A stretch of 64,000 nt of DNA, from positions 7,515 through 71,514 of the forward strand of contig JAIPUZ010000106.1 of the NCBI GenBank assembly GCA_022833215.1, given 5' to 3'. Both the position numbers and the translations under genes were made by a program. The notes beneath the pieces were generated by a model, which did no database searches, had not been told where the DNA came from, and worked only from the letters and a program-made list of their open reading frames with translations. The stretch is from Mesorhizobium sp. (GTDB lineage Bacteria > Pseudomonadota > Alphaproteobacteria > Rhizobiales > Rhizobiaceae). Positions 3,477 through 55,112 of this stretch are shown here, piece after piece. Position 1 is the first letter of the stretch. The number at the start of each line of letters is the position of its first letter.

Positions 3477-4304
3477 TTGAAGAAGCGGACGAAACAGCCA
3501 GACAGCGAAACAGCCCTGGAGACGGTGCATCCCGCGTCCGGGGATCGCCAGTTCGTGACTGCCTTGCAACGCGGCCTCGACATTCTGCGCGCCTTTCGCC
3601 CGGCTGACACAGCACTCGGCAATCAGGAACTGGCGGAGCGTTCCGGGCTGCCCAATTCCACCGTCTCGCGGCTCACCTACACCCTGTCGAAGCTTGGCTA
3701 CCTCGTCTATCTGGAAGAAATCGGCAAGTACCGCATGGGCGTGCCGGTGCTGGGCCTCGGCTATGCATGCCTGAGCGGCCTGAAGGTGCGCGAGGTGGCG
3801 CAGCCCTATCTGGACGCCCTTGCCGAGCACGCCGGCAACGGCATCCTTGTCGCCATGGGCGGACGCGATGAGTTCAGCATGATCTACGTTGCATGCGCCC
3901 GTTCGCCCGGTGTCGTGTCGTTGCAGCTCAATGTCGGCTCCCGCATCTCGCTGGCCCGTTCCAGCATGGGCCGCGCCTATCTGGCGGCCGCTCCCGCCCG
4001 GGAAAGGGAAACGCTGCTTCGCGGCATCGAGGCGCGAACCGACAAGGCGCGCTGGCCCCAGCTGCACGAGGAAATCCTGCGCGCCATCGAGGAAATCGAG
4101 ACCCGCGGCTTCTGCCTCAATTCCGGGGAATGGCATGCGGACGTCAACTCCGTCGGCGTACCGCTCGTGCCGCTGCATGGAGGTGGCCCCGTCCTCGCGC
4201 TGAACTGCGGCGGCCCCGCCTACCTGCTGCCACGCGAACGGCTTGAAAACGATCTCGGACCGCGCATGGCGGAGATGGTGAAGAAGATACGCTATTCCGG
4301 TTAG
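3477..4304 (+). CDS. IclR-family transcriptional regulator (PcaR/PobR-like)
   Basis: FVTALQRGLDILRAF...LAERSGLPNSTVSRLTYTL; SSMGRAYLA; GEWHADVNSVG. TTG start preceded by GGGGAG. Confidence 0.92.
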   Translation: MKKRTKQPDSETALETVHPASGDRQFVTALQRGLDILRAFRPADTALGNQELAERSGLPNSTVSRLTYTLSKLGYLVYLEEIGKYRMGVPVLGLGYACLSGLKVREVAQPYLDALAEHAGNGILVAMGGRDEFSMIYVACARSPGVVSLQLNVGSRISLARSSMGRAYLAAAPARERETLLRGIEARTDKARWPQLHEEILRAIEEIETRGFCLNSGEWHADVNSVGVPLVPLHGGGPVLALNCGGPAYLLPRERLENDLGPRMAEMVKKIRYSG

Positions 4305-4407
4305 AGCATCTTGCAGTCAGACGGAATCGTCTGACGTCGCATAAATGCGGATAAGAAAGAGACTGGAGCAGTGGAAGCAGCGTTCGTCAGAACGTCCGCT
4401 GCTCTAA
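4301..4407. repeat. Palindromic mosaic element, family A copy 1 (RIME/Bru-RS-like)
   Basis: Terminal inverted repeat TTAGAGCA...TGCTCTAA, internal hairpin GTCAGACG-GAAT-CGTCTGAC and a right-hand hairpin. The left half recurs at 23179 and 27852. Supplies the TAG stop of the IclR gene. Confidence 0.85.
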
Positions 4408-4510
4408 GCATGTCGCCCGAAAGTGGGAACTGGTTTCGGGATCACGACATGCGTAAAAACAACAGCTTAAAGCGTAAGGAGCGAATCTGAAAGATCTCGA
4501 CACGCTTTAG
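4404..4510. repeat. Palindromic mosaic element, family B copy 1
   Basis: GCATGTCGCCCGAAAGTGGGAACTGGTTTCGG...GCGAATCTGAAAGATCTCGACACGCTTTAG. Recurs inverted at 13112-13211 and degenerate at 55011-55112. Supplies the TAA stop of the AI-2E gene. Confidence 0.85.
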
Positions 4511-12442: not shown

Positions 12443-13114
12443 ATGCAGGCAGGAAACGCACATTACCGGCGAGAATCGGACCTTCCGCACACCGTTCCCG
12501 TGTTCCCGCTCGAAGGTGCGCTTTTGTTGCCGGCCAGCCGTCTCCCGCTCAACATCTTCGAGCCGCGTTATTTGCAGATGGTGGACCACGCCATCGCCTC
12601 CAACCGGCTGATCGGCCTCATCCAGCCGAGCCTCGACGGAGCCCTGCGCGACGACGGACAGCCGGAACTGTGCGAGGTCGGCTGTTTCGGGCGCATCACC
12701 TCGATGACCGAGACCGGCGACGGCCGCTATCTGATAGCGTTGCAGGGCGTTTGCCGTTTCCGGCTTGCCGGGGAGCTGACGGTGAAAACCCCGTTCCGTC
12801 AATGCAGGGTCACGCCCTTCCTTGCCGATCTCGAGGACGACACCGCAGCCGGAAGCATCGACCGGCCCGCTCTTCTGAAGGTGTTCCGCGCCTATCTGCA
12901 GGCCAACGATCTTCAGGCGGACTGGGAAGGCGTGAACCGCGCCGACGACACCATGCTGGTCAACGCGCTTTCGATGATGGCCCCTTACGGGCCGGCCGAG
13001 AAGCAGGCGCTGCTGGAAGCGCCCGACCTGCGCACCCGCGCCGAGACGCTGATCGCCATCACTGAAATGGCGCTGGCGCGAGACAATGACGATTTCGGCA
13101 CGAGCCTTCAATAA
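12443..13114 (+). CDS. LON peptidase substrate-binding (N-domain-only) protein
   Basis: PVFPLEGALLLP...LPLNIFEPRYLQMV; VGCFGRIT; EKQALLEAPDL. No AAA or protease domain. Confidence 0.9.
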   Translation: MQAGNAHYRRESDLPHTVPVFPLEGALLLPASRLPLNIFEPRYLQMVDHAIASNRLIGLIQPSLDGALRDDGQPELCEVGCFGRITSMTETGDGRYLIALQGVCRFRLAGELTVKTPFRQCRVTPFLADLEDDTAAGSIDRPALLKVFRAYLQANDLQADWEGVNRADDTMLVNALSMMAPYGPAEKQALLEAPDLRTRAETLIAITEMALARDNDDFGTSLQ

Positions 13115-13211
13115 AGCGCGTCGCGATCTTTCAGATTCGCTTCCTGCGCTTTAAATTGTTGTTTTTGCGCATATTGCCCGAAACCGGTTCCCACTTTCGG
13201 ACGACATGCGC
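13112..13211. repeat. Palindromic mosaic element, family B copy 2 (inverted)
   Basis: Reverse complement aligns by eye to 4404-4510 (GCATGTCGTCCGAAAGTGGGAACCGGTTTCGG...GCGAATCTGAAAGATCGCGACGCGCTTTA). Supplies the TAA stop of the LON-N gene. Confidence 0.85.
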
Positions 13212-13232
13212 GAGATTCGGGGAGAACGGCAT

Positions 13233-22153: not shown

Positions 22154-23332
22154 CTACTCGTGCAGCACGAATTCGAGATAGAGATTGCGCTGCAGGAACG
22201 ACTGGTTGTCGTCCGACATCATGGAAACCATCGTGGCCCCGTCTGCGCGCCGCCACACATCGAGCGCTTCCATGTTGTCGATCTGCCAGGCCATGTCGGC
22301 CTGGAACAGCACCCGCCCGTCGACCAGCGCGCCCTTGCCGATGCTGTCGCCGGCAATGCGCCGCAACCGCATGCGAACGCCGCTCATGATGGTGTAGCTG
22401 CGCTCCAGCAGAAGCAGGTCGCCATCGGGCAGGAAAGCGCCGTCGGTGATGTCGAACCCGTCATGGCGGCGTACCGTGAAGATGCCCTTCCGCGGCCCGT
22501 CGGTCACGGCGGCAAAGATGTTGCCTTGCCCGTCGAGGCTCTTTTCGGTGATCGCCACCAGCGCGCCCCGCAGCGGACCGGAGGAAGGCGCGAAGGCAAG
22601 CGTCTCAAAGCCGCGATTCTGGCGCAGTTCATAGGCGGGAATCAGGAAATCGATGTTTCCTGTCGGCCCTTTCATGTCCTCCGGCTCCAGCCGGAACCGG
22701 CTGATGCGGTGCCGCCGCTCGAAGCCGACGATGGCCTCGCCATCGCGCACGGCGAGGCTCTCGGCATCCATCTCTCCCTTTTCGGGAAATATCCTGCCTG
22801 CCGCATCGACCATGGGCTGGAGGCGCACCTGTTCCAGCCCTGCCGGTTTTCCCGCCGCGTCGCGCGCGATGCTGGCGAACAGCCAGTAGCCGGTGTCGGT
22901 CACCGCCACGAGATCGCGGCCGGGCGAAAGGAAGCGCATCGCGGAAATGCCGCCGAAGGCGCGCGTGGGGGCAGACATCTCCAGCCCGCCAACGAACTCC
23001 AGCGGACCGAAGCGCGTCTCGTCACGGCCGATATGGAAGCCCGAAATCTGCCGCGAGGATACGCCGACGGACTGAACGGACGCCGGTTCGGCAAATGCGG
23101 GAACCGACAAGAGGACGGCGAGAGCAATTCCAGCAAAAGTGCGAAGCGGTTTTGCTGGAATTGCGTAAAAACAAAAGATTAGAGCATTTTGCAGCCAGAT
23201 GGAAACATCTGGCATCGCATAAATGCGGCCAAAACAAAGAGATAGAGCGTTTCTGCGATTCGGGGAAAAGCAGAAATGCTCAAGTGCGGGCAGAAGCCCG
23301 CGTAGCAGGCCCCTGAGCAGGCAGGAGGGCAC
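22154..23332 (-). CDS. Esterase-like activity of phytase family protein (exported), with in-frame repeat insertion in the signal peptide
   Basis: LEFVGGLEMS...FGGISA, DAESL, NRGFETLA, ITDGAFLPDGDLLLLER, DNMEAL and MSDDNQSFLQRN. The N-terminal aa 18-71 are repeat-derived. Confidence 0.85.
   Translation of the reverse strand: MPSCLLRGLLRGLLPALEHFCFSPNRRNALSLCFGRIYAMPDVSIWLQNALIFCFYAIPAKPLRTFAGIALAVLLSVPAFAEPASVQSVGVSSRQISGFHIGRDETRFGPLEFVGGLEMSAPTRAFGGISAMRFLSPGRDLVAVTDTGYWLFASIARDAAGKPAGLEQVRLQPMVDAAGRIFPEKGEMDAESLAVRDGEAIVGFERRHRISRFRLEPEDMKGPTGNIDFLIPAYELRQNRGFETLAFAPSSGPLRGALVAITEKSLDGQGNIFAAVTDGPRKGIFTVRRHDGFDITDGAFLPDGDLLLLERSYTIMSGVRMRLRRIAGDSIGKGALVDGRVLFQADMAWQIDNMEALDVWRRADGATMVSMMSDDNQSFLQRNLYLEFVLHE
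23120..23284. repeat. Composite palindromic element (half-element plus family A copy 2) inside a CDS
   Basis: Perfect 15-bp inverted repeat GCAATTCCAGCAAAA/TTTTGCTGGAATTGC (23124-23164), then TTAGAGCATTTTGCAGCCAGATGGAAACATCTGGCATCGCATAAATGCGG... matching 4301ff, ending in hairpin GAGCGTTTCTGC/GCAGAAATGCTC. Confidence 0.85.
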
Positions 23333-23352
23333 TGGCTAGGCCGGCGCGGGCA

Positions 23353-25248
23353 TCAGGACGCCCGCCGTAGTCCGCCGCCGCGGCCGTGTGTGCTTTCTTC
23401 CTCGAACAGGGAAGCGAGCTGCTCGGTCATGGCCCCGGCCAGTTCCTCCGCATCGACGATGGTGACGGCGCGGCGATAGTAACGGGTGACATCGTGGCCG
23501 ATGCCGATGGCCAGCAGCTCGACCGGCGAGCGCGTCTCGATCAGATCAATGACCGCGCGCAGATGCTTCTCCAGATAGTTGCCCGGATTGACCGACAGGG
23601 TTGAATCGTCCACCGGCGCGCCGTCCGAAATCATCATCAGGATCTTGCGCTGCTCGGGCCGGGCCATCAGCCGGTGATGCGCCCACAAGAGCGCCTCGCC
23701 GTCGATGTTCTCCTTGAGCAGGCCCTCGCGCATCATCAGGCCGAGATTGCGGCGCGCCCGCCGCCACGGCGCGTCGGCCGATTTGTAGACGATGTGGCGC
23801 AGATCGTTGAGGCGGCCGGGATTGGCCGGCTTGCCGTCCTTCAGCCATTTTTCGCGCGCCTGCCCGCCCTTCCACGCACGCGTGGTGAAGCCGAGGATTT
23901 CCACCGAAACGCCGCAGCGCTCCAGCGTGCGGGCGAGAATGTCGGCGCAGGTCGCCGCCACCGTGATCGGGCGGCCGCGCATCGAGCCCGAATTGTCGAG
24001 CACCAGCGTCACGACCGTGTCGCGAAATTTCGTGTCGCGTTCCTGCTTGAAGGAAAGCGGCTGCATGGGATCGATGACCACGCGCACGAGGCGGGCCGGA
24101 TCGAGATAGCCTTCCTCGAGATCAAAATCCCAGGAACGGTTCTGCTGCGCCATCAGGCGGCGCTGCAGGCGGTTGGCCAGCCGGCCGACCACGCCCTGAA
24201 GATTGGCGAGCTGCTTGTCGAGGAAGGCACGCAGCCGGTCGAGCTCCTCCTCTTCGCAAAGCTCCTCGGCGCCGACCGTCTCGTCGAACTGGGTCGTATA
24301 GACTTTGTAGTCCATGTCCTTCGCCAGATTGGCGAAGGGGTTGTCGCCGCGACGCGCCTCGCCGGGCGTTTCGGCGTCGGCATCGTCGTCGTCCGACAAA
24401 TCTTCCGACATGGCGTCGTCGGCATCCGCCTCGGCCTGCGACTGGTCGTCCTCGGACGCTGCGGCGTCCTCGGCCTGCGCATCTTCCGAGCCTGAATCCT
24501 CCTCGCCGCCGTCTTCGGAATCGTCGCCGCCCTGCGGTTCCTCTTCCTGATCGTCCTCGGCCTCTTGCGTCTCGTCGTCTTCCTCGAACTGCTCGGCCAT
24601 GTTCATGGAGGCGAGCATGTCACGCACCACGCGGCCGAACGCCTGCTGGTCCTGAAGCTTGTCGCCCAGTCCGTCGAGGTTGGCGCCGGCCTTGTCCTCT
24701 ATCCAGCCGCGCCACAGATCCACCAGCCGCTCCGCGCTCTTCGGCACCTTCCGCCCGGTCAGCCGCTCGCGCACCAGAAGGGCGACGGCTTCCTCAAGCG
24801 GCGCTTCCTCCCGATCGCGAACCTCGGCCAGGTTGGCTTTTGCGTATTTGTCTTCCAGCATCGCGCCGAGATTGCTGGCGACGCCCGCCATGGCGCGCGC
24901 GCCGATGGCTTCGACGCGGGCCTGCTCGACGGCGTCGTAGACGGCGCGGGCCTGCTTGCCTTCGGGAGCCAGCCGCGCATGCACGCGGTTGTCGTGACAG
25001 GCGCGGCGCAACGCCATGGAATCGCCGATGCCGCGCGTCACCGCGATGTCGGCGGCCGTCGGCTTCTTCGGCAGTTCGGGCAGGCGCGCCCGGTTGCCGG
25101 CCATGGCCGGCTTGTCCTTGGCGAAGGAAACCTCCATCTCCTTGTCGTTGGAGATGGCGCGTATGGCCACGGTCATGGCGCGCTTGAAACCGTCGGTTTC
25201 AGCGCCTGCCTTGAGCTTGTTTCTCGTATTGTCGCCGGGGCCTGCCAT
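23353..25248 (-). CDS. cobT: Cobaltochelatase subunit CobT (VWA domain)
   Basis: Acidic linker; [12 protein letters not shown]; [18 protein letters not shown]; [11 protein letters not shown]; [12 protein letters not shown]. Confidence 0.96.
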
Positions 25249-27840: not shown

Positions 27841-27851
27841 CTGCGCGACAA

Positions 27852-27956
27852 CCAGAGCGTTTTGCAGCCAGACGGAATCGTCTGACGTCGAATAAATACG
27901 GCAGAAACAAGCAGATAGACCGGCATCCCGGAATATCCGGGCAGCCGCCGCTCCAG
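27852..27956. repeat. Palindromic mosaic element, family A copy 3
   Basis: CCAGAGCGTTTTGCAGCCAGACGGAATCGTCTGACGTCGAATAAATACGG matches 4301ff. The right half carries a different hairpin (CCCGGA-ATA-TCCGGG) and ends CGCTCCAG. Confidence 0.82.
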
Positions 27957-27965
27957 CACCCGCGC

Positions 27966-55010: not shown

Positions 55011-55112
55011 CTAAAGCATCTCGCCTGAAAGTGGGTGGGACCCGGTTTCGCGGCAACGACGCGTGAAAGCAAGAGCGTGAGGAGCGAATACGAAAGATCG
55101 CGACACGCTTTG
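55011..55112. repeat. Palindromic mosaic element, family B copy 3 (degenerate)
   Basis: CTAAAGCATCTCGCCTGAAAGTGG..GGACCCGGTTTCG...GGAGCGAATACGAAAGATCGCGACACGCTTTG aligns to 4404-4510. Lies between convergent genes. Confidence 0.75.

What the first reader, a model, noticed from the sequence alone, without database searches (positions are those of the whole stretch)
23120..23332. Palindromic repeat inserted in-frame into a signal peptide (RPE-like domestication of a rhizobial repeat)
Seen: a composite of two repeat units, the same family as intergenic copies at 4301 and 27852, occupies 162 bp (23120-23281, aa 18-71) of the phytase-like esterase ORF with no stop or frameshift. Deleting these 54 codons yields MPSCLLRGLLRGLLPAL-AVLLSVPAFA|EP, a clean Sec signal peptide with an AxA site. 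With the insert, the protein either has an ~81-aa leader or starts at the repeat-internal ATG (23215; MPDVSIW...KPLRTFAGIALAVLLSVPAFA), where the repeat donates the basic n-region and part of the h-region. Established: in-frame insertion of palindromic elements into proteins is known for Rickettsia RPEs, whereas RIME/Bru-RS elements are described as intergenic. Inference: this family can create new protein sequence. The strand used reads its TAGAGC ends as GCT CTA (Ala-Leu), leaving one frame open.
Basis: partly seen in the sequence, partly recalled or inferred. Interest (0 to 1): 0.7.

Follow-up and report, generated by a model that had tools for sequence, protein, structure and literature searches.

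The report
Mobile repeat inside a signal peptide
A 162-base copy of a small mobile palindromic repeat sits in frame inside the export signal of a secreted phytase-like enzyme gene in an Aquamicrobium genome. The gene still evolves like a working gene, and a sister lineage has a second, independent in-frame hit a few codons away, so this is a clean but not unprecedented case of selfish DNA tolerated inside a coding sequence.

Summary
Window 23120-23281 is a 162-nt insert (54 codons, aa 18-71) in the minus-strand PF13449 gene 22154-23332. It belongs to a genome-wide mosaic MITE-like repeat family with about 90 module copies in this genome, present in about half the sampled genera of the family. 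The predicted empty allele exists: A. ahrensii reads ...GLLRGLLFAL|AVLFFAPAFA|EPA. Three diverged lineages carry the insert (window, A. defluvii DSM 11603, a metagenome lineage). Their mature domain has dN/dS 0.21-0.24, the same as insert-free orthologs (0.16-0.24), so the gene is not dead. The insert's own amino acids drift neutrally (8 nonsynonymous: 1 synonymous). The internal ATG is unique to the window. In the other two lineages the ancestral GTG is the only standard start that keeps a signal peptide. An A. terrae-like lineage has a second, independent in-frame insertion of the same family in the same signal peptide. A. ahrensii has a third copy 6 nt before the start. No other intragenic copy turned up in the genome or in protein databases. 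Verdict: a tolerated in-frame MITE insertion in a disposable leader, not a family-wide RPE-like domestication. It is a new member of a known kind, of moderate interest.

The parts
22154..23332 (-). Phytase-like esterase gene (PF13449), 392 aa when read from the ancestral GTG at 23332
   Evidence: ORF list. Pfam PF13449 E 4.6e-41 at aa 125-376. More than 2500 homologues; the median leader is 27 aa against 81 aa here.
23282..23332 (-). Pre-insert 17 codons: ancestral GTG start, n-region and first half of the old h-region (VPSCLLRGLLRGLLPAL)
   Evidence: Homologous to the A. ahrensii leader VRPCPSTGLLRGLLFAL. Among the three filled lineages there are 3 nonsynonymous and 5 synonymous changes (binomial P = 0.027).
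23123..23280 (+). Repeat element core, 158 nt, antisense to the gene: head M1 (23123-23178) + TTAG + head M2 (23183-23241) + ATAG + tail hairpin (23246-23280). 23183-23280 is a canonical 98-nt element.
   Evidence: Module hits by nhmmer and blastn. The canonical core length of 98 nt is modal for full-length M1+tail copies (12 of 22). Termini are AGCAATTCC... and ...GAAATGCT.
23119..23122 (+). Left copy of the putative 4-nt target-site duplication (CGAG)
   Evidence: The empty site in A. ahrensii has a single CGAG (GG CGAG CGC). A. defluvii has CGAG on both sides of the core.
23281..23284 (+). Right copy of the putative duplication (CAAG in the window and in L005; CGAG in A. defluvii)
23213..23215 (-). 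Repeat-internal ATG (codon 40), a derived ACG to ATG change found only in the window lineage
   Evidence: L005 and A. defluvii have ACG, and intergenic copies of the repeat have the ACG form too. A public 353-aa protein call identical to the window's sequence starts here (P0134).
23090..23152 (-). Rebuilt signal peptide: KPLR (n) + TFAGIAL (from the repeat) + AVLLSVPAFA (original h/c-region), with AFA|EP cleavage after codon 81
   Evidence: The 17-residue uncharged stretch has mean hydropathy 2.08, against 16 residues at 2.35 in the empty orthologue. The 64-aa extension upstream of this stretch has 7 K/R and 2 D/E.
23353..25248 (-). cobT, whose stop codon lies 20 nt upstream of the GTG, leaving almost no intergenic space
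   Evidence: Pfam CobT/CobT_C. Synteny is kept in L005/L110. In Mesorhizobium the start ATG overlaps the cobT stop (ATGA).
4303..4371 (+). Intergenic M2-type copy that opens a longer mosaic array; its TAG is the stop codon of the upstream gene
27854..27922 (+). Intergenic M2-type copy
   Evidence: The spacer is 14% diverged with a 21-nt deletion against the sister lineage, compared with 3.1% for the intragenic copy.

Best explanation
A non-autonomous, MITE-like mosaic repeat transposed into codon 17/18 of the phytase-like gene in the common ancestor of the A. defluvii group, after that group split from A. ahrensii. The element core runs AGCA...GCT and is built of hairpin modules separated by YYAG 4-mers. 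The 158-nt composite core plus a 4-nt target duplication (CGAG) adds 162 nt, which is 54 codons. In this orientation and phase it has no stop, so the reading frame continues. The insertion splits the hydrophobic core of a cleavable Sec signal peptide. The C-terminal half of that core and the AFA|EP cleavage site survive, and the last inserted codons happen to encode K-P-L-R plus hydrophobic residues. A normal n-h-c signal is therefore rebuilt at the insert/gene boundary. Everything upstream becomes a net-positive N-terminal extension that should stay cytoplasmic and is removed with the leader, so the mature enzyme is unchanged. The insertion is tolerated rather than recruited. Translation most likely still starts at the ancestral GTG, 20 nt after the cobT stop. 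The window lineage has also gained an internal ATG that may now serve as a shorter start. The site is hit repeatedly because this family settles at the 3' flanks of genes, often sharing the stop codon's TAG, and downstream of cobT there is almost no spacer before the next gene. Shown: the insertion, the empty site, its age, purifying selection on the mature part and the recurrence. Inferred: export, the start codon used, the transposition mechanism and the reason for the hot spot.
For: Empty and filled alleles with the exact junction. The filled allele is found in three diverged lineages: two named isolates' records and at least 24 metagenome contigs. Mature-domain dN/dS is 0.21-0.24 within the filled clade and 0.16-0.24 among insert-free orthologues; nonsynonymous changes are depleted (P = 1e-4). 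The insert has 9 variable sites, 8 of them nonsynonymous, and no indel or stop. It diverged 3.1%, against 12-14% plus a 21-nt deletion for the spacers that hold intergenic copies in the same genome pair (Fisher P = 5e-4). L005 and A. defluvii have no ATG/GTG/TTG in frame between codon 15 and the cleavage site. The rebuilt h-region matches the ancestral one in length and hydropathy, and the extension is net positive. One CGAG at the empty site becomes two at the filled site. There is a second, independent in-frame insertion of a canonical 98-nt element in the same leader in an A. terrae-like lineage, with the ORF open in all 4 contigs, and a third copy 6 nt before the GTG in A. ahrensii. Genome census: 77 copies are intergenic and 13 overlap a stop codon by 1-2 nt; 34 lie in convergent spacers against 4 in divergent ones.
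Against: No Shine-Dalgarno-like motif precedes the GTG or the ATG. An open frame across the insert is expected by chance over this divergence (P about 0.77). Three of the six frames are open, so an intact frame is not rare a priori. Annotation pipelines disagree on the start (392, 353, 324 and 274 aa). An 81-aa leader with a second hydrophobic patch (ALIFCFYAIPA) could impair targeting. Among old copies the flanking 4-mers of one element match each other no better than those of different elements, so the 4-nt duplication rests on three filled/empty comparisons. No partner transposase was identified.
Confidence: 0.7

Rival explanations
1. Start-site shift. After the insertion the first 17 codons and most of the insert became 5' UTR. 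The protein now starts inside the repeat: at ATG 23215 in the window (42-aa leader MPDVSIW...), at a non-standard codon such as ATT-69 in the other lineages, and at the repeat-internal TTG in the A. terrae-like lineage. The repeat would then donate the start codon and the n-region.
For: The window lineage gained an ATG in frame, a derived ACG to ATG change. A public 353-aa call identical to the window's sequence starts there, and PGAP calls ATT-69 for A. defluvii. In the second event all gene callers start at a TTG inside the element, preceded by AGGTGGA. The pre-insert segment is highly diverged in both events: 12% against 6.9% at third codon positions in event 1, and 13% against 0.2% in the mature part and downstream gene in event 2.
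Against: A. defluvii and L005 have no standard in-frame start inside the insert. An ATT-69 product (MALAVLLSVPAFA) lacks any basic n-region. The pre-insert codons show 3 nonsynonymous and 5 synonymous changes, which hints at coding constraint (P = 0.027). The upstream ORF is open in every filled contig of both events. No SD-like motif precedes ATG 23215.
Confidence: 0.2
2. Inactivating insertion. The split signal peptide no longer works, the protein is not exported, and the gene is a young pseudogene whose frame is still open by chance.
For: The frame could stay open by chance (P about 0.77). The leader is three times the family median. Strong hairpins lie in the 5' coding region.
Against: dN/dS in the filled clade (0.21-0.24, tree dS about 0.14) is no higher than in insert-free orthologues and far below 1. 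There is no stop or indel in 311 mature codons in three lineages. A rebuilt n-h-c signal with intact AFA|E is present.
Confidence: 0.05
3. Adaptive recruitment. The insert was kept because it adds function, for example hairpins that tune translation downstream of cobT, or a long leader that delays or regulates export.
For: The intragenic copy evolves four times more slowly than the spacers holding intergenic copies. The same leader was hit twice independently and both alleles persisted. The hairpins are preserved in all three lineages.
Against: The insert's amino-acid changes are neutral (8:1) and include charge changes. The two events use opposite orientations and unrelated peptides. Most orthologues manage without any insert. 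The slower rate needs only selection against stops and indels in a translated leader.
Confidence: 0.05

Closest known systems
Rickettsia palindromic elements (RPEs; Ogata et al. 2000, 2002, as summarised in PMC10969869)
   Same: A palindromic, non-autonomous repeat of about 100-150 bp inserted in frame into a protein-coding gene, adding tens of residues while the host gene stays functional.
   Different: RPEs sit in frame in dozens of unrelated genes and encode conserved peptides. Here only one gene's leader is affected (twice), the encoded peptides are unconstrained and differ by orientation, and the insert lies in a segment that is cleaved off. No sequence relationship to RPEs was detected.
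In-frame or terminal fusions by other bacterial MITEs: intragenic ERIC, pneumococcal BOX, Coxiella QMITE1/2, Anabaena MITEs (PMC10969869; PMC5896051)
   Same: Small mobile repeats that are mostly intergenic, often abut or supply stop codons, and occasionally read through as part of an ORF.
   Different: Those cases are mostly C-terminal extensions or insertions in hypothetical proteins. I found no described case of insertion into a signal peptide's hydrophobic core with the signal rebuilt (literature search; that search covers open-access text only).
Rhizobiales intergenic mosaic/palindromic repeats: RIME1/2, Sm-repeats, Brucella Bru-RS1/2 (Halling and Bricker 1994, cited in PMC2266754)
   Same: Units of about 100 bp built from palindromic modules in mosaic arrays, spread across rhizobial genera, with CTAG/YTAR-like sequences at the ends. 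There are sub-threshold Rfam matches to two Brucella sRNA models.
   Different: Direct sequence identity with the published RIME or Bru-RS consensus could not be tested here. Those elements are described as intergenic.
Extended signal peptide regions (ESPR) of autotransporters (from general knowledge)
   Same: Sec-dependent leaders of 50-60 aa, with an N-terminal extension in front of an ordinary n-h-c signal, are exported and cleaved.
   Different: ESPRs are conserved, functional extensions. This one is an accidental, unconserved insert of repeat origin.

Membership tests
MITE (miniature inverted-repeat transposable element) | Short (under about 500 bp), multi-copy, with no coding capacity for a transposase | tested here: met
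   The canonical core is 98 nt and the composite 158 nt. There are about 90 module hits in the genome.
MITE (miniature inverted-repeat transposable element) | Terminal inverted repeats | tested here: met
   The 5' end AGCAATTCC(A)GC pairs with the 3' end GCGGAAATGCT (reverse complement AGCATTTCCGC), about 10 of 11 bases, across canonical copies.
MITE (miniature inverted-repeat transposable element) | Target-site duplication shown by comparing filled and empty sites | tested here: inconclusive
   Three filled/empty comparisons fit a 4-nt duplication: CGAG is perfect in A. defluvii, and CTGG and CTAG each fit with one mismatch. Old copies show no own-pair excess over the shared YYAG consensus.
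MITE (miniature inverted-repeat transposable element) | A cognate autonomous IS or transposase with matching ends | tested here: not met
   No IS-sized pair of matching ends was found. Two DDE_Tnp_1 fragments showed no link to the repeat. The draft assembly may hide IS copies.
REP/RAYT system | A RAYT (Y1 transposase, PF01797) gene in the genome, and 20-40 nt REPs tagged GTAG or CGTC | tested here: not met
   PF01797 is absent from the genome, while positive controls matched. The elements are about 100 nt and lack a consistent GTAG tag.
Rickettsia palindromic elements (RPE) | Recurrent in-frame insertion into many unrelated genes, with a conserved encoded peptide | tested here: not met
   No other intragenic copy was found in the genome. 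The 54-aa peptide matched only short or low-complexity proteins among 1.84 billion representatives, and only its own cluster among proteins of 215-686 aa. The peptide evolves neutrally.
RIME / Bru-RS type rhizobial repeats | Sequence similarity to the published RIME1/2 or Bru-RS1/2 consensus | not testable with these tools
   No reference sequences were held. Indirect evidence: sub-threshold Rfam hits to Brucella sRNA models BASRCI27 (29.8 bits, E 7e-5) and BASRCI408.
RIME / Bru-RS type rhizobial repeats | Mosaic of palindromic modules, mostly intergenic, spread across rhizobial genera | tested here: met
   Modular heads and tails occur in varying combinations. 77 of 90 copies are intergenic. 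Matches occur in 62 of 120 sampled genera of the family.
Sec (SPase I) signal peptide | Basic n-region, hydrophobic h-region of 10-20 residues, small residues at -3 and -1 (AXA) | tested here: met
   KPLR + TFAGIALAVLLSV + PAFA|EP, with hydropathy equal to the insert-free orthologue. This is sequence-rule based only; no predictor or experiment was used.

The most novel reading that the evidence does not exclude
The family may be built to be readable. Its units come in multiples of three once the 4-nt duplication is counted: 98+4 = 102, head+4 = 63, and here 158+4 = 162. About half of its frames lack stops. Copies landing in 5' coding regions would then be 'exonised' into leader peptides rather than killing the gene. 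The repeated hits in this cobT-coupled gene might also reflect selection for a hairpin-rich, long leader that tunes translation or export.
Probability: 0.1. Interest if true: 0.6.

Novelty: new member of a known kind. Interest (0 to 1): 0.4.

Why it matters
This is a well-controlled natural experiment on how much abuse a signal peptide tolerates. The hydrophobic core was split by 54 (or, in the second case, about 34) foreign codons in two independent events, in opposite orientations. Insert-free sister alleles are available, and there is evidence that the gene kept working. It extends in-frame capture of mobile repeats to the widespread rhizobial mosaic repeats, which are usually described as strictly intergenic. 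It gives filled/empty site pairs that bear on how these elements insert (4-nt duplication at CYAG-like sites). It also explains a practical annotation problem: public records give this one gene four different starts (392, 353, 324 and 274 aa).

Tried and rejected
(1) A 55-aa protein (P0121) looked like an intermediate allele carrying only half the insert. Its contigs are assembly chimeras that join this locus to a DUF2093/mutL locus of another organism through the repeat: 96% identity on one side and 82% on the other. Rejected. (2) Stop-to-stop ORFs spanning repeat copies gave many false 'intragenic' candidates in this GC-rich genome. A home-made codon-usage gene finder and flank scoring left only this locus. 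That finder is crude, with 82% coding density. (3) Searching for the 54-aa peptide found nothing meaningful among 1.84 billion representatives or among proteins of 215-686 aa in the 5.8-billion-cluster set. Clustering can hide insert-bearing members. (4) A metagenome pattern scan for the left junction returned 0 hits, probably because near-identical records are withheld. (5) A search for a parent IS by paired termini showed no enrichment. RAYT is absent, and the DDE_Tnp_1 fragments are unlinked. (6) A permutation test for target duplications on old copies was not significant. (7) There are no promoter-like or intrinsic-terminator-like sites in 22900-23500. (9) search of earlier findings returned nothing for this genome.

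Full report
**What is there.** The minus-strand ORF 22154..23332 encodes 392 aa from a GTG. It carries a Phytase-like domain (PF13449, E 4.6e-41, aa 125-376). It lies 20 nt downstream of cobT (23353..25248, minus strand). Bases 23120-23281, codons 18-71, are repeat DNA:
- The repeat finder links 23181-23249 to 4303-4371 and 27854-27922.
- blastn and iterated nhmmer on the whole 4.55-Mb genome find 43 'M1' and 47 'M2' module hits.
- As RNA the 162 nt fold at -63.4 kcal/mol, z = -8.75.

**Anatomy of the family.** Canonical copies have a 98-nt core running AGCA...GCT. The core is a 59-nt head (type M1 or M2, each a hairpin), a YYAG 4-mer and a 35-nt tail hairpin. The ends are inverted repeats (AGCAWTTCC / GGAAATGCT). 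A further C(C/T)AG-like 4-mer sits on each side. The window copy is a two-headed composite of 158 nt:
- M1 head, 23123-23178
- TTAG
- M2 head, 23183-23241
- ATAG
- tail, 23246-23280

In the genome, 77 of 90 module hits are intergenic by a crude in-house gene finder. Thirteen overlap a gene's stop codon by 1-2 nt, always in the gene's orientation, so the TAG of TAGAGC serves as the stop. Flanking-gene arrangement is 34 convergent, 40 co-directional and 4 divergent. The family matches in 62 of 120 sampled genera of the taxonomic family. It gives sub-threshold Rfam hits to two Brucella sRNA models. There is no RAYT gene and no partner IS was found.

**Empty and filled alleles.** Homologue searches and named genomes show the following.
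- A. ahrensii DSM 19730 (same as P0002, 86% identity) reads VRPCPSTGLLRGLLFAL|AVLFFAPAFA|EPA.
- A. terrae and all Mesorhizobium orthologues also lack the insert. The median leader is 27 aa.
- The insert sits at the same site in A. defluvii DSM 11603 (L030), in a second A. defluvii record (EXL03385.1), and in a metagenome lineage seen on at least 24 contigs (P0001; L005, L110).
- Written on the element's strand, the empty site is GG-CGAG-CGC. The A. defluvii filled site is GG-CGAG-[158-nt core]-CGAG-CGC. This fits a 4-nt target duplication, so the insertion adds 158+4 = 162 nt, or 54 codons.

**Is the gene still alive?** Pairwise Nei-Gojobori estimates for the 311 mature codons give dN/dS 0.21-0.24 within the filled clade (dS 0.08-0.10). 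Insert-free orthologues give 0.16-0.24. Nonsynonymous changes are depleted relative to neutrality (P = 1e-4). There is therefore no relaxation after the insertion.

Within the insert, the three lineages differ at 9 sites. Eight are nonsynonymous, including L to R, A to E and Q to K. There are no indels or stops. The inserted amino-acid sequence is therefore not conserved as such.

The insert diverged 3.1% between the window and L110. Third codon positions diverged 6.9%. The two spacers that hold intergenic copies of these repeats diverged 12-14% and one has a 21-nt deletion (Fisher P = 5e-4). That pattern fits selection against disrupting a translated leader. On its own, though, frame retention is expected by chance (P about 0.77).

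**Which start codon?** ATG 23215 (codon 40) is a derived ACG to ATG change unique to the window lineage. In L005 and A. defluvii there is no ATG, GTG or TTG in frame between codon 15 and the cleavage site. The next in-frame start is codon 119, inside the conserved mature domain. If those proteins are exported, as the selection data imply for a protein whose orthologues all carry signal peptides, they must be read from the ancestral GTG through the insert, or from a non-standard codon. The 17 pre-insert codons show 3 nonsynonymous and 5 synonymous changes (P = 0.027), a weak hint that they are still translated. Public records use four different starts: 392, 353, 324 (ATT) and 274 aa.

**Why it can work (inference).** The insert ends in K-P-L-R-T-F-A-G-I-A-L. 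Joined to the retained AVLLSVPAFA|EP, this gives a basic n-region, a 17-residue uncharged hydrophobic stretch (mean hydropathy 2.08) and an AXA site. The ancestral LLR-GLLFALAVLFFAPAFA|EP has 16 residues at 2.35. The 64 residues in front carry 7 K/R against 2 D/E. Under the positive-inside rule they should stay cytoplasmic and leave with the cleaved leader.

**Recurrence.** An A. terrae-like lineage (P0003 cluster; L111, L113, L114, L116) carries a canonical 98-nt M2-type element (nhmmer E 8e-20), in the opposite orientation. It sits between codons 16 and 17 of its leader: MPPRPASASPLRLRG.-[34 aa]-AFAILLALGASVQALA|DP. The frame from the ATG is open in all four contigs. The empty allele, in two A. 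terrae genomes, reads MPPRPASAASLCLLCGLVLAIVLAAGAPAPVLA|DP and has one CTGG where the filled alleles have CTGG on the right and CTGA, CCGG or CGGA on the left. A. ahrensii carries a third, different module 6 nt upstream of its GTG, at a site that reads CTAG in the window.

In Mesorhizobium the gene's ATG overlaps the cobT stop (ATGA). My reading is that elements settling just downstream of cobT have almost no spacer to land in, and that only stop-free hits of a length divisible by three in the disposable leader survive. Three of the six frames are open in both inserts, so such survivors are not rare.

**What is not supported.** No other intragenic copy was found in this genome. The 54-aa peptide has no meaningful match among 1.84 billion representative proteins. 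Among proteins of 215-686 aa in the larger collection it matches only its own cluster. A supposed half-insert intermediate (P0121) is an assembly chimera. In-frame fusions by MITE-like repeats are already described for RPE, ERIC, BOX, QMITE and Anabaena MITEs. I found no report of one inside a signal peptide.

**Limits.** No signal-peptide predictor was available. The gene census uses a crude in-house gene finder. The 4-nt duplication rests on three site pairs (one search is not significant). Identity with the published RIME or Bru-RS sequences was not tested.

**Verdict.** It is a new member of a known kind, with interest 0.4.

Noticed in passing
L111:1475-1572 (also L113, L114, L116); empty alleles L112 and L032: A second, independent in-frame insertion of a canonical 98-nt M2-type element into the same gene's signal peptide, in an A. 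terrae-like lineage and in the opposite orientation. Gene callers start the protein at a TTG inside the element.
   Followed up: yes
L031 about 990-1110 (A. ahrensii, spacer between cobT and the gene): A different module of the mosaic family is inserted 6 nt upstream of the GTG, at a site that reads CTAG in the window (23338-23341). It is flanked by CTGG and CTAA.
   Followed up: partly
L111:1381-1659 compared with L112: The leader region is 10-17% diverged between filled and closest empty alleles, while the mature gene and the downstream gene differ by about 0.2% and cobT by about 3%. This points to a recombination mosaic or very fast leader evolution. The left junction 4-mer differs among the filled contigs (CGGA, CCGG, CTGA).
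   Followed up: partly
genome-wide, e.g. window 4301-4303: 13 of 90 repeat copies share 1-2 nt with a gene's stop codon (the TAG of TAGAGC), always in the gene's orientation. Copies are enriched between convergent genes (34) and rare between divergent genes (4).
   Followed up: partly
window 4380-4510, 13112-13209, 55074-55111: Further repeat modules of other types (GCATGTCGCCCGAAAGTGGGAAC...TTTCGGG and AGCGTAAGGAGCGAATCTGAAAGATC...GCTTT) are joined head to tail with the M2 unit at 4301. The array is a true mosaic of several module families.
   Followed up: no
L028, L029 (JGI metagenome contigs): These are chimeric contigs that jump from this locus to a DUF2093/mutL locus of a more distant organism exactly at the repeat. 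They create a spurious 55-aa protein in public collections.
   Followed up: yes
window 27841-27965 and 13115-13232 compared with L110: Spacers that hold intergenic repeat copies are 12-14% diverged (one has a 21-nt deletion) between genomes whose third codon positions differ by 6.9%. These repeats evolve faster than synonymous sites.
   Followed up: partly
public protein records for this gene (P0126, P0134, P0131, P0125): The same gene is annotated with four different starts (392, 353, 324 using ATT, and 274 aa). The 274-aa form removes about 37 conserved mature residues.
   Followed up: partly
window 23150-23165: The M1 head in the gene is 3 nt shorter than the family consensus (GCTGGAATTGCG against GCGTTCGGAATTGCG). 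This deletion preserves the reading frame.
   Followed up: no
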